From: Escherichia coli
Lineage (GTDB): Bacteria; Pseudomonadota; Gammaproteobacteria; Enterobacterales; Enterobacteriaceae
Strand: one strand, 5' to 3'
Assembly: GCF_016903815.1 (NCBI RefSeq)
Contig: NZ_CP069972.1
Length of the DNA: 64,000 nucleotides
Program-made: the position numbers and the translations under genes
The notes under the pieces: generated by a model
What the model was told of the DNA's origin: nothing
Seen by the model: only the letters and a program-made list of their open reading frames with translations
Database searches by the model: none
Part shown: positions 26,028 to 47,400 of the stretch, in pieces
How positions within the stretch are numbered: position 1 is the first letter of the stretch
Layout: every line of letters starts with the position of its first letter

Positions 26028-26180
26028 TTAACGTTTAACTTCGTAGGCTAACGTTGCCACAAGCACTGTGTTTCCCTGCTGGAGCCGGAGTCCGCAAAGC
26101 GAATCCCTCACCATCCAGACAAAACACAGAATCGTCACACAGATGACGATTAACATCATTAAAAACGTTCGCTGTGGCAT
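26028..26180 (-). CDS. pndA: Hok/Gef-family type I toxin, PndA-like (50 aa)
   Basis: Not in ORF track; translation MPQRTFLMMLIVICVTILCFVWMVRDSLCGLRLQQGNTVLVATLAYEVKR with GGAGG RBS; single TM plus conserved Cys typical of Hok family; hairpin 25996-26018 downstream. Confidence 0.8.
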   Translation of the reverse strand: MPQRTFLMMLIVICVTILCFVWMVRDSLCGLRLQQGNTVLVATLAYEVKR

Positions 26181-26212
26181 CATAGCCCCTCCATTGCCTT
26201 ACGGCGGTTATC

Positions 26213-26295
26213 GGGCTACTATAATGTTGTCTAGGCATTACAGTAGAGCCCTTGGTTGATTGATAAAAAAATCTCCAGGGGCTTTCTGCTGTATA
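26213..26295 (+). ncRNA. Candidate Sok/PndB-like antisense RNA region over the toxin leader
   Basis: TATAAT-like box at 26220-26225; lies antisense to the expected mok/pndC start upstream of pndA; exact ends not determined. Confidence 0.35.
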
Positions 26296-26510
26296 CCGTC
26301 CACAAAACGCTTTCGGCATACAGCCTCAAGCGCCCGCAGCTATTCTAACGACTTTCGTATCGGTAACAATCCTTTTAACCAGCCCCACACATCTTTCGGA
26401 CATGGTGAGTACAAAAGGCTGCGCTCTCGAACATTTGACATTGAAAATGATTCAGGTGACAGCCTGAATGTAGCAGGAGTCCCCGTCCTTCTGGCATAGA
26501 AGATGTCAAC

Positions 26511-37159: not shown

Positions 37160-37495
37160 TTTCCCGGAGGAGCGAAGCTCCTTCTGCCGTCCGGGTCTTC
37201 GGGGATTTCCCCGCAGTGGACCTTTCCGACGGGGGACGCTCACCACGTCACGGGGCAGTTGTCCGGGGGCAGACGCAAAAGTTTTTGACGCCTGCGGCAA
37301 AAAGTTTTGTGGCTGGTACATCTCTCCCCTGGACGACTGAAACGGGATGTGGTCATGTATGTACCCCCGGAAAGTCCGTCTGCGGAGAACAGGCCGCAGT
37401 GCGGCGGCAGACAGGCAGAGACAGCTGCGCCATCAGGCGCAGTGGCCTTACACACCGTAAGGTGTGCAGGGAGCGCCGCATACGGCGCGACTGAA
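37160..37495 (-). repeat. Family-A GC-rich structured repeat, copy 1 (Frpo/ssi-like single-strand promoter candidate)
   Basis: ~335 bp highly similar to 40553-41055 and 46898-47400; many internal inverted repeats. Confidence 0.6.
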
Positions 37496-37976: not shown

Positions 37977-38159
37977 CTACTGCTCATCAGGAAACAGCTT
38001 TTTCAGTTCTTCACCGGAAAGTCCCGTGACCTCCTGAATCCGTTCCAGCGGCCAGCCTATATCCCGAAGCCGGCAGGCTATTTCCCGCGCCACTTCAAGA
38101 GCCCCTTGTTTAAAACCCTCGTCGAAACCTTTCTGTATAAGACGTTCTGCAATCGTCAT
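37977..38159 (-). CDS. Free-standing Rpn tail-domain ORF (RpnS-like, 60 aa)
   Basis: MTIAERLIQKG...TGLSGEELKKLFPDEQ parallels the C-terminal tail of the adjacent Rpn protein; lies after the rpn terminator; SD weak and distant. Confidence 0.45.
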   Translation of the reverse strand: MTIAERLIQKGFDEGFKQGALEVAREIACRLRDIGWPLERIQEVTGLSGEELKKLFPDEQ

Positions 38160-38181
38160 GCTGTTTGCTCTGCTCCTGCTG

Positions 38182-38208
38182 ACAAAAAAGCCCGGCATTT
38201 TGCCGGGC
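38182..38208 (-). terminator. Rho-independent terminator after rpn
   Basis: GCCCGGCA-loop-TGCCGGGC; on - strand followed by T6. Confidence 0.55.
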
Positions 38209-38221
38209 TTTGTGGTTCTCA

Positions 38222-39148
38222 TCAGTGAGTGATTTTCTTCAGTTCGTCATCGGAAAGTCCGGTAGCCTGCTTAATCTGCTCCGGCGTCATCCCCATTTTC
38301 TGAAGCTGGCACGCAATAGCCAGGGCTTTTTCAAGCGCTCCTTCCATGCGTCCTTCCATGCGTCCTTCCATCCTGCCTTCCTGGCGACCTTTTTGCTCAA
38401 GACGTTCTGCGATAGTCATCAGTTTATCCTCATGCTGCGGCAGACGCTCAGCCAGCGCCCGCATAAATTCCGGTGATACAGAGTCCCCTGCGTTAACGAT
38501 GTAATGAATCAGAACACGCACCTGCTCGTCTGAAATTTCCACCATGACCTGCGGGAGTTTGTCCAGCAGCTCCATCATGTCACGATGGCGGATATGCTTC
38601 ATCAGCAGCGTCAGTGCGGCCATCCGGCGATGGTTCATGATTTCATTGTCATCAACGACAGTGATATCAACCAGCGGAAACGGCTTTGTGTATATTTTAG
38701 CCGCAAGTGCCGGATTCTCAAAACAGTCCAGCCAGTTCATGCTGTACGGGTACGGGCTGCGCTCACCGTGATAGAACAGCACCGGAATCACCAGTGGCAA
38801 CGTTTTGTGCTGCTCCAGATGTCTCTGCATCGCCGCCACACTGTAGCGTAACATGCGAAAAGGCATGTACAGATTTTCTGTGCTCTGGTGCTCGATGAGC
38901 GTATAAACATAACCATCTTCACCCCCGGTGGTTTTCACGCTCCAGAGGATATCGCTGGCGTACTGATGCAGGTCCGGCTCAACAAAGGTGGCGGGTTCCA
39001 GCTTCAGCGTGGACAGGTCGCACAACTGCCGGTACTCCGCAGGAAGATGCAGTTCCAGAAAATCCCTGGCAACGTCGGGATTCGCCAGGAACGACCGGAA
39101 CGCGGCATCATGCGGCGTGGGCGTTGTGGTGTTTTTCTTCTTACTCAC
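38222..39148 (-). CDS. Rpn-family (YhgA-like) recombination-promoting nuclease (308 aa, GTG start)
   Basis: GGAGG before GTG; N-terminal domain with ...YVYTLIEHQSTEN... motif; C-terminal tail with (EGRM)3 repeat; internal in-frame ATG 38419 with GAGGA SD. Confidence 0.75.
   Translation of the reverse strand: MSKKKNTTTPTPHDAAFRSFLANPDVARDFLELHLPAEYRQLCDLSTLKLEPATFVEPDLHQYASDILWSVKTTGGEDGYVYTLIEHQSTENLYMPFRMLRYSVAAMQRHLEQHKTLPLVIPVLFYHGERSPYPYSMNWLDCFENPALAAKIYTKPFPLVDITVVDDNEIMNHRRMAALTLLMKHIRHRDMMELLDKLPQVMVEISDEQVRVLIHYIVNAGDSVSPEFMRALAERLPQHEDKLMTIAERLEQKGRQEGRMEGRMEGRMEGALEKALAIACQLQKMGMTPEQIKQATGLSDDELKKITH
38340..38387 (-). repeat. Tandem 12-bp coding repeat (CCTTCCATGCGT x3-4) encoding EGRMEGRMEGRMEG
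   Basis: Direct tandem copies inside the rpn tail. Confidence 0.8.
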
Positions 39149-39534
39149 GGTTCCTCCATCAAATCAGCAGCATCGCAGCAATCATCGCCCAAATCCCCAC
39201 AACCGAGAGGACAGCAATTGCGTTCAAAGCCATGACAACAATAGCCGCGTTCTGAGTCACGGCGTATTTCTTCAGCAATCTCTTCTGCGGAAAGGTAATC
39301 AAACTCCTCACGGGCCAGTTCCAGGACCAGTAGATGTTGTTCTGTCGGCAATGTGGCCACAAAATTATCAATAGCAGCACTCAAACGTCGCTGATATAGC
39401 TCATAAACAAGACCACAACGGGGCATTAGTTCTTCGGATAATAGTTCCAGTTTTGAGCGAATTCTGTCAGCGTTGAAAGTGACTTCATCAAAAGACATAT
39501 GAAAAGCTTTGTCAGTATCAAAACAAGACTTCAT
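39145..39534 (-). CDS. Hypothetical protein with Cys-rich C-terminus, translationally coupled to rpn (129 aa)
   Basis: GGAG before ATG 39534; stop overlaps rpn start (4-nt overlap); CCHGFERNCCPLGCGDLGDDCC tail. Confidence 0.4.
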   Translation of the reverse strand: MKSCFDTDKAFHMSFDEVTFNADRIRSKLELLSEELMPRCGLVYELYQRRLSAAIDNFVATLPTEQHLLVLELAREEFDYLSAEEIAEEIRRDSERGYCCHGFERNCCPLGCGDLGDDCCDAADLMEEP

Positions 39535-39710
39535 TGTTATCTCCAGCCCTCCCGGGCCCTGAATGAAAGAGAATCTGTTTCCCTTTTCTGTTTTTTGTGG
39601 AGACACCATGCAACACAGACGTCGTGATGTTTTTCATCTTGCTCACGGTTCCTCCTGGTAAAGTACCTGAACACATCCTGCCACCTGCACAGGCAGACGG
39701 CAGGGGTTAA

Positions 39711-39977
39711 TCAGTGACAGACCCGTTCAATTTCAAGCGCGCGGAGCAGGTGGCCCCATTCGCTGACTTTCATGGCGGGGATACGTACCCGCTTCTGCTC
39801 ACTGCAGCGTCTGGCGATATGACCGCCCATCGCCAGGACGTCCGGGTTAATCTCATCCGGTGCCAGTTCCTGGCGTCTGAAGCGGGTATGGCGGTGCAGG
39901 GGTTTGTTCTCCCGCAGGCACTCTTCACGCAGACGCTTTACATACTCGGCGGTTGCGAAGATAATTGATGGTCTCAT
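39711..39977 (-). CDS. Hypothetical protein (88 aa)
   Basis: GGAG 9 nt upstream of ATG 39977 (internal to track ORF 39711..40073). Confidence 0.4.
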   Translation of the reverse strand: MRPSIIFATAEYVKRLREECLRENKPLHRHTRFRRQELAPDEINPDVLAMGGHIARRCSEQKRVRIPAMKVSEWGHLLRALEIERVCH

Positions 39978-40069
39978 GGCATAATCTCCATAGTTAGTGA
40001 ATGAGATGCCGGACTTCCGTACGGGGAAGCGCCAGCGGAGAAAGGCAGGGTTTATCGCCCTGCTTTTTT

Positions 40070-40504
40070 TCATTCCGGACAGCGACGCAGTGCCAGCGCG
40101 AGCGCTTTCATCTTCCAGCCTTCCGGCGTGCGGTACATCACCTTCCAGTAGCCGTCGATGAACACATAATGGAAGCGCACCTCTTCAGTGCTTTCCGTGG
40201 CGATGGCCTCCCTGAAAGAACGGTACTCACGCGCCTCACTGTCCATCCGGAAACCACTGTCACGTCCGTAATAAGCCGTCACACCGTCCACCGGGTTCTG
40301 AAGCGTATGCCCGGCGGGTTTGTCGCAACGGGGACCGAGGCAACGGATATCACCGTGTTCAACCAGGGCTTCGGCCTGCTGACCGGTGGCATAGTGGGTA
40401 TGCAGGATGCGACCGTTCCAGGTCGGCTCACCGTGCAGGTGGCAGTAAACGGTACGGAACACCCCGTCGCGGCAAAAAACGGAAATCGTGCTGCTGACTG
40501 TCAT
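40070..40504 (-). CDS. Hypothetical protein (144 aa)
   Basis: AGGAG before ATG 40504; first gene downstream of repeat A2; His/Cys-containing, no motif recognised. Confidence 0.5.
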   Translation of the reverse strand: MTVSSTISVFCRDGVFRTVYCHLHGEPTWNGRILHTHYATGQQAEALVEHGDIRCLGPRCDKPAGHTLQNPVDGVTAYYGRDSGFRMDSEAREYRSFREAIATESTEEVRFHYVFIDGYWKVMYRTPEGWKMKALALALRRCPE

Positions 40505-40552
40505 GAAAACGTCTCCTTCTGCTGAATCAGGTCGCCGGGCCGACCGGTTGCT

Positions 40553-41055
40553 CCCCCGGAGGGGCGAAAGCCCCTTCTGCCGTCCACTTCTTCGGGGTTT
40601 CTCCCCGCAGTGGACCTTTCCGATGGGGCAGCGACTGCCACGGCACGGGGCAGTTGTCCGGGGGCAGACGCAAAAGTTTTTGACGCTTGCGGCAAAAAGT
40701 TTTGTGGCTGGTACATCTCTCCCCTGGACGGCTGAAACGTGTTGTGGCCGCTTCAGCCCCCGGAAAGTCCACAGCGGGGAAACAGGCCGCAGGGGGGGCG
40801 GCGGAAGGGCAGACAACTGCGCCATCAGGCGCAGTTTCCTTACACACCGTCAGGTGTGCAGGGAGCGCAGGTCACGGCGCGACAGAGGCGGCGCGACCGG
40901 AACGGTCGCTGCAAGCCTGGTTTTTCAGACATCGGACCGTAGCGGCAGCCCGAAACCGCGCCAGCGGGTTCGGCGGAGACTGGCGGGTGCGCCAGCAGCT
41001 GCCTGTCGGAGTCGGGCCTGACGACCGGATGCCGCCAGGCAGCCGGGAGCCGAAG
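40553..41055 (-). repeat. Family-A repeat, copy 2 (Frpo/ssi-like)
   Basis: ~500 bp; near-identical blocks shared with copies 1 and 3. Confidence 0.6.
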
Positions 41056-46832: not shown

Positions 46833-46897
46833 AAGAACCTCCTGACTGAAAGATGTGAGATAAACCGGATACCGGCGACGGGACGTTCATGTGCCCC

Positions 46898-47400
46898 TTC
46901 AGAGGAGCGAAAGCTCCTCCTGCCGTCCACTTCACAGGGGTTTCTCCCCGCAGTGGACCTTTCCGATGGGGGCCCGTTTACCGCCTCACGGGGCAGCTGT
47001 CCGGGGGCGGACGCAAAATTTTTTGCCGGGTTCATGGCTAAAAATTTTGTGGCCGGTGCATCTCACCCTGGACAGATGGAACGGGAGGGGGTTACGTCTG
47101 CCCCCCGGAAAGTCCACAGCGGGGAAACAGGCCGCAGGGGGGGCGGCAGGAGGGAGGACTGCTGCGCCATCAGGCGCAGTTTCCTCACACACCGTCAGGT
47201 GTGCAGGGAGCGCAGGTCACGGCGCGACAGGGGCGGCGCGACCGGAACGGTCGCTGCAAGCCCGGGTTTTCACGCATCGGACCGTAGCGGCAGCCCGAAA
47301 CCGCGCCAGCGGGTTCGGCGGAGACTGGCGGGTGCGCCAGCAGCTGCCCGTCGGAGTCGGGCCTGACGACCGGATGCCGCCAGGCAGCCGGGAGCCGAAG
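46898..47400 (-). repeat. Family-A repeat, copy 3 (Frpo/ssi-like), upstream of ssb
   Basis: ~500 bp near-identical to copy 2; right edge is where the intron begins. Confidence 0.6.

What the first reader, a model, noticed from the sequence alone, without database searches (positions are those of the whole stretch)
39145..40504. Three uncharacterised small genes between the Rpn module and repeat A2: anti-defence candidates
Seen: ORFs of 144 aa (40070..40504), 88 aa (39711..39977) and 129 aa (39145..39534, Cys-rich tail, translationally coupled to rpn) each have good SDs, lie directly downstream of a family-A repeat on the - strand, and match nothing I recognise. Established: leading-region genes driven by single-strand promoters are enriched for anti-restriction, anti-CRISPR and SOS-modulating functions. 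Inference: plausible anti-defence or partner/antitoxin genes; the 129-aa protein could modulate the Rpn nuclease.
Basis: inference. Interest (0 to 1): 0.6.

Follow-up and report, generated by a model that had tools for sequence, protein, structure and literature searches.

The report
Early-entry plasmid genes of unknown function
Three real but functionally uncharacterised small genes lie at the start of an operon that an IncI-type resistance plasmid switches on as it enters a new cell; this makes them reasonable but unproven anti-defence candidates, and the one next to the Rpn nuclease is an independently mobile cassette, not an Rpn partner.

Summary
All three ORFs exist at the stated coordinates and are real genes under purifying selection (dN/dS about 0.1-0.25). 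The window is the leading region of an IncI-complex plasmid, 100% identical here to pHUSEC411like and syntenic with pESBL-EA11 and R64. The gene order is ssi2 (family-A, Frpo-like repeat), orf144, orf88, orf129, rpn, rpnSs.

Published work on pESBL reports six leading-region operons with ssDNA promoters, induced up to about 500-fold early in transconjugants. It also classes these three genes (Hp16-18) as dispensable for maintenance and transfer.

- **orf144**, often mislabelled 'PndC', belongs to a large unannotated family found in plasmids, conjugative elements and T4-like or jumbo phages. It has invariant His, His, Arg and Asp residues and a confident predicted fold with no PDB neighbour. 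A 53%-identical allele occupies the same slot in an otherwise 95-100% identical backbone.
- **orf129** is a CcgAII-family protein: acidic, a helical bundle followed by a conserved Cys/His motif. It sits in a ~498-nt low-GC insert bracketed by two copies of the rpn start. R64 lacks it, and elsewhere it occurs without rpn.
- **orf88** is an IncI-restricted basic orphan.

The anti-defence role is plausible but untested. The Rpn-modulator idea is not supported.

The parts
40533..41055 (-). Family-A repeat copy A2. This is the ssi2 / Frpo-like class 1 single-strand promoter element that precedes orf144. The + strand is the transferred, template strand.
   Evidence: Three-copy repeat family. The + strand folds at -120 kcal/mol, z = -8.3. 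Literature equates such repeats in IncI plasmids with ssi1-3 ssDNA promoters (PMC12672017; PMC3817090; PMC10104558).
40070..40504 (-). orf144 (Hp16 of pESBL). It is often mislabelled 'PndC'. It belongs to a large unannotated family found across mobile genetic elements.
40045..40063 (-). Conserved GC-rich hairpin (GCAGGG-CGATAAA-CCCTGC) directly after the orf144 stop. Its U-tract is weak, so it may be an attenuator or an RNA-stability element.
   Evidence: Read from the sequence. Conserved in R64, L015, L016, L023 and pESBL. Not called as a terminator by the scan.
39711..39977 (-). orf88 (Hp17 of pESBL). A basic (pI 9.9) orphan protein restricted to IncI-complex plasmids.
   Evidence: ORF and SD. 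No hit in any library. Only close homologues exist. Present in 2015 plasmid records. dN/dS 0.11-0.24. The start is conserved and the 120-aa extension is not.
39629..39655 (-). Upstream, diverged copy of the rpn translation-initiation sequence (GGAGGAACCGTGAGCAAGATGAAAAAC). It forms the left border of the orf129 insert.
39145..39534 (-). orf129 (Hp18 of pESBL). It is a CcgAII-family protein, sometimes mislabelled 'CbiX'. It is acidic (pI 4.4), with a predicted four-helix bundle followed by a conserved C-x-H-G-x4-C-C-P-L-G-C-G-D-L motif. It lies inside a low-GC insert of about 498 nt.
   Evidence: Homologues named CcgAII. Alignment with invariant C99, H101, G102, C107, C108, P109 and G113. AF2 helices at residues 22-95. 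Gene GC 45% against 58-59% for orf144 and orf88. Absent from R64, L015, L016 and L023. dN/dS 0.20 against the IncF-type copy.
39131..39157 (-). Downstream copy of the rpn start sequence. This is the functional rpn SD and GTG. It also encodes the last codons (MEEP*) of orf129.
38222..39148 (-). rpn (Hp19 of pESBL). An Rpn-family PD-(D/E)XK nuclease with an internal RpnS start and (EGRM)x3 four-residue repeats.
   Evidence: TIGR01784, 180 bits. Literature: RpnL/RpnS toxin-antitoxin and phage defence (PMC10400941).
37977..38222 (-). Stand-alone RpnS-like small ORF (RpnSs type). It overlaps the rpn stop by 1 nt.
   Evidence: 51% identity to Rpn residues 244-306, E 1e-14. Partial TIGR01784 hit. HTH_Rpn_C recorded (faint) on the corresponding ORF in L016.

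Best explanation
**What it is.** The three ORFs are genuine protein genes at the promoter-proximal end of the ssi2 operon in the leading region of an IncI-complex conjugative plasmid. The order is ssi2, orf144, orf88, orf129 (ccgAII-like), rpn, rpnSs.

**How it is expressed.**
- The + strand of the window is the transferred strand.
- On entry, the ssi2 repeat folds into a hairpin that acts as a promoter on single-stranded DNA.
- The genes are therefore transcribed early after entry and silenced once the complementary strand is made.
- The operon structure, the hairpin and the gene order are shown here. Early induction is taken from published pESBL data.

**Three unrelated modules, not one system.**
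1. orf144 belongs to a very large family shared with other conjugative elements and with T4-like and jumbo phages. Its invariant His22, His66, Arg81, Asp82, Tyr113 and Trp120, together with a compact alpha/beta fold, suggest an enzyme or a small-ligand or protein-binding effector.
2. orf88 is a lineage-specific basic protein that always accompanies orf144 in IncI plasmids.
3. orf129 is a CcgAII cassette that recombined in at the rpn start. It is an acidic helical bundle with a probable Zn-binding Cys/His knuckle.

**Most likely role (inferred).** They are accessory establishment factors that act in the recipient, neutralising host defence or stress responses. orf144 and CcgAII are the strongest anti-defence candidates. 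They are not Rpn regulators.
For: **Identity and synteny.** The region matches pHUSEC411like, pESBL and R64, with oriT/nikA downstream.

**Promoter element.** ssi2 repeat family and hairpin, z = -8.3.

**Published expression and essentiality.**
- Six leading-region operons are induced up to about 500-fold at 15 min. Each has a mapped ssDNA-promoter TSS, and class 1 corresponds to ssi1-3 (PMC12672017).
- Three ssi operons are described, one including 'PndC' plus unknown ORFs (PMC10104558).
- Tn-seq classes Hp16-Hp22 as non-essential for maintenance and transfer (PMC4288162).

**Coding constraint.**

**orf144.**
- 1979 representatives.
- Conserved motifs.
- pLDDT 96.
- Only uncharacterised AFDB neighbours, across bacteria, one archaeon and viral metagenomes.
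- Phage copies in GAP32, KVP40 and cyanophages.
- Neighbours ArdC, DUF4942, RadC and SIR2.
- A sharply bounded 53%-identical allele in a 95-100% identical backbone.

**orf129.**
- CcgAII family and motif.
- Leading-region location without rpn in IncF-like plasmids.
- Listed among IncN backbone/CUP-regulon genes.
- Insert structure.

**Leading-region enrichment for anti-defence genes.** PMC11541004.
Against: - No protein here matches any known anti-defence family by sequence. By fold, neither modelled protein (orf144, orf129) has a meaningful neighbour; orf88 was not modelled.
- The anti-defence role rests on position, expression timing and neighbourhood.
- Leading regions also carry non-anti-defence genes (ssb, parB-like, toxin-antitoxin systems), and this very operon carries a defence-type nuclease (rpn).
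- The IncI orf144 deviates from its family consensus at 6 of the 28 best-conserved positions, including T3V, D24H, S54R and R83S. It may therefore have altered or lost the ancestral activity.
- I could not see per-gene RNA-seq values, because the figures and supplements are not held. A conserved hairpin follows orf144. How far ssi2 transcription reads into orf88, orf129 and rpn is therefore inferred.
- The deep alleles have dN/dS about 0.2 with saturated dS. That indicates ancient divergence plus cassette swapping, not demonstrated positive selection.
Confidence: 0.55

Rival explanations
1. orf129 is a dedicated partner of the adjacent Rpn nuclease, acting as an antitoxin or modulator, and is translationally coupled to it so that the two are made in fixed ratio.
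For: There is a 4-nt GTGA overlap of the orf129 stop with the rpn start. The arrangement is found in about 500 plasmid records. RpnL is toxic and needs an inhibitor (PMC10400941).
Against: - R64, L015, L016 and L023-25 carry the same rpn (99% protein identity to the window's in L023) directly after orf88, with no orf129.
- CcgAII homologues sit in IncF-like leading regions with no rpn, and are listed among IncN backbone genes.
- The overlap is created by a duplicated rpn start that brackets a low-GC insert.
- The known Rpn antitoxins are RpnS and RpnSs, and both are present here.
- There is no sequence similarity between orf129 and Rpn.
- Tn insertions in Hp18 are tolerated.
Confidence: 0.06
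2. The genes serve plasmid establishment in a non-defence way, for example by damping the SOS/RecA response to incoming ssDNA, helping ssDNA-to-dsDNA conversion, or reprogramming recipient gene expression.
For: The neighbouring ssi3 operon encodes SSB and PsiB/PsiA. One plasmid annotation table lists ccgAII as 'prevention of RecA overproduction', without evidence (PMC3347995). orf88 is strongly basic (pI 9.9), which is compatible with nucleic-acid binding. [quoted passage not shown]
Against: There is no homology to PsiB, SSB, RecX or similar proteins. The RecA annotation has no traceable experiment. The genes are dispensable in laboratory matings. The orf144 family is also carried by lytic T4-like and jumbo phages that do not enter as ssDNA.
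Confidence: 0.22
3. orf144 is PndC (the mok-like reading frame of the pnd post-segregational killing system) and orf129 is CbiX, as many database records say.
For: These are the product names given in GenBank and UniProt records.
Against: The true pnd locus is elsewhere: the sok RNA is at 26178-26335, and pESBL PndC/PndA are at 79766-79976. orf144 shows no similarity to true PndC. orf129 has no CbiX Pfam hit. RefSeq calls both proteins hypothetical.
Confidence: 0.01
4. One or more of the ORFs, especially the orphan orf88, is a chance reading frame in a transcribed spacer.
For: orf88 has no homologue outside IncI-complex plasmids, and many database entries are fragments.
Against: dN/dS is 0.11 at dS 0.59. 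The start codon and SD are conserved, including a GTG start in R64, while the alternative extension decays. The N- and C-terminal thirds are invariant across variants. It co-occurs with orf144 in the same number of records, 2015.
Confidence: 0.03

Closest known systems
ssi/Frpo-driven leading-region operons of IncI1 and F plasmids (ssb-psiB-psiA, ardA, klcA, M.EcoGIX)
   Same: The repeat family, the hairpin on the transferred strand, the orientation towards oriT, transient early expression in transconjugants, and dispensability in laboratory matings are all the same.
   Different: The products of this operon's first three genes have no assigned activity. The operon also carries a defence-type toxin-antitoxin nuclease (rpn) rather than only anti-defence genes.
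CcgAII of IncN plasmids pKM101/R46 (a CUP-controlled gene, in the ArdK-regulated leading-region regulon)
   Same: There is clear homology over the ~100-residue core, including the C-x-H-G-x4-C-C-P-L-G-C-G-D-L motif. It also lies in a leading region, and its function is also unknown.
   Different: Here it has a 13-residue C-terminal extension with two extra Cys. It lacks a ccgAI partner and was not checked for a CUP promoter. It is embedded in the ssi2 operon and fused by a 4-nt overlap to rpn, as the result of an insertion.
ArdA / Ocr-type acidic DNA-mimic anti-restriction proteins
   Same: orf129 is small and strongly acidic (pI 4.4, net charge about -16), is encoded in a leading region, and is expressed early.
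   Different: There is no sequence or fold similarity. orf129 has a helical bundle plus a Cys/His knuckle rather than the ArdA fold. No anti-restriction assay exists; the statement in PMC3817090 is not backed by traceable data.
RpnS / RpnSs antitoxins of Rpn nucleases (Zhong et al. 2023)
   Same: They are small proteins encoded next to or within rpn that control the nuclease. The 81-aa ORF at 37977..38222 fits this family.
   Different: orf129 has no similarity to the Rpn C-terminal domain and is absent from many plasmids that carry the same rpn.

Membership tests
Class 1 ssDNA-promoter (ssi/Frpo) operon | Upstream repeat homologous to the other ssi copies of the plasmid | tested here: met
   Three copies, at about 37243-37494, 40533-41055 and 46876-47400.
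Class 1 ssDNA-promoter (ssi/Frpo) operon | The transferred strand folds into a long, stable hairpin | tested here: met
   -120 kcal/mol, z = -8.3, 0 of 100 shuffles as stable.
Class 1 ssDNA-promoter (ssi/Frpo) operon | Transient induction in transconjugants with a TSS inside the hairpin | not testable with these tools
   Reported for the syntenic pESBL (PMC12672017).
CcgAII family (orf129) | Full-length sequence homology including the conserved Cys/His motif | tested here: met
   E 1e-19 to 1e-46 to proteins named CcgAII. Invariant C99, H101, G102, C107, C108, P109, G113.
CcgAII family (orf129) | Control by a CUP repeat and the ArdK repressor, as in IncN plasmids | not tested
   No CUP search was run. 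Here the gene lies inside the ssi2 operon.
Known anti-defence protein families (ArdA, ArdB/KlcA, ArdC, PsiB, Acr, Ocr and others) | Sequence or fold homology to a characterised member | tested here: not met
Known anti-defence protein families (ArdA, ArdB/KlcA, ArdC, PsiB, Acr, Ocr and others) | Inhibition of a defence system in vivo | not testable with these tools
   Needs conjugation or phage-plating assays.
Rpn antitoxin (RpnS/RpnSs) | Homology to the Rpn C-terminal domain (HTH_Rpn_C) | tested here: not met
   orf129 against Rpn gives no similarity. By contrast the 81-aa ORF matches Rpn residues 244-306, E 1e-14.
Rpn antitoxin (RpnS/RpnSs) | Obligate co-occurrence with rpn | tested here: not met
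   rpn occurs without orf129 in R64, L015, L016 and L023. ccgAII occurs without rpn in L003-L008.
PndC (pnd/hok-sok system) | Overlaps pndA and lies next to the sok-like antisense RNA | tested here: not met
   sok is at 26178-26335, far from orf144. There is no similarity to pESBL PndC.
CbiX | Match to the CbiX chelatase profile | tested here: not met
   No Pfam hit even at E <= 10.

The most novel reading that the evidence does not exclude
The orf144 family is a previously unrecognised enzyme-like effector with a new fold, shared by conjugative plasmids and by T4-like and jumbo phages. It would disarm a widespread host immune pathway in the first minutes after DNA entry. The two deeply diverged alleles that swap in and out of the same IncI slot would then represent alternative specificities maintained by an arms race. 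CcgAII would be a second, independently mobile Zn-knuckle inhibitor.
Probability: 0.3. Interest if true: 0.75.

Novelty: new member of a known kind. Interest (0 to 1): 0.48.

Why it matters
IncI-complex plasmids are major carriers of ESBL genes. About 2000 sequenced plasmids carry orf144 and orf88 as the first genes of an operon switched on when the plasmid enters a new host. If either protein, or CcgAII, blocks a host defence, it would be a determinant of plasmid host range and a target for limiting the spread of resistance.

orf144 in particular offers a large, structurally confident and completely unannotated family shared with phages, so one experiment would annotate thousands of genes.

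The negative result also matters. The apparent coupling of orf129 to rpn is a recombination scar, and the widespread 'PndC' and 'CbiX' labels are wrong.

Tried and rejected
**Library searches that found nothing useful.**
- Pfam, NCBIfam and PADLOC gave nothing meaningful for the three proteins. PHROGs gave only two unknown-function families for orf144.
- The weak PADLOC hits to orf129 (PRTase_III-A, E 5e-4, 17 bits, partial) were treated as chance.
- PDB sequence searches, single and profile, found nothing.
- The alcohol-dehydrogenase hit of profile A1 is an artefact of a chimeric row (P0111) in that alignment.

**Fold searches.**
- AFDB50 returned only uncharacterised proteins.

**Other leads.**
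- Domain fusions in long orf144 homologues were uninformative: one WYL_2 and one gp32-like.
- The 77-aa gene upstream of IncF-type ccgAII is not related to orf88.
- I checked whether AcrIE9/AcrIE10 lie in the IncF-like ccgAII neighbourhood (L003). No ORF there begins with the published Ec_AcrIE9 N-terminus, and none of the three window proteins does either.

**Data-quality problems.**
- Two 'divergent' orf88 homologues (L013 and L014) come from error-prone assemblies and were not used as evidence.
- My BLAST used an alignment row named 'window' by mistake and suggested a second ccgAII at 321-610. Rerunning against the real window showed this to be the same gene at 39191-39480.

**Literature.** Searches by accession and by PHROG id found nothing.
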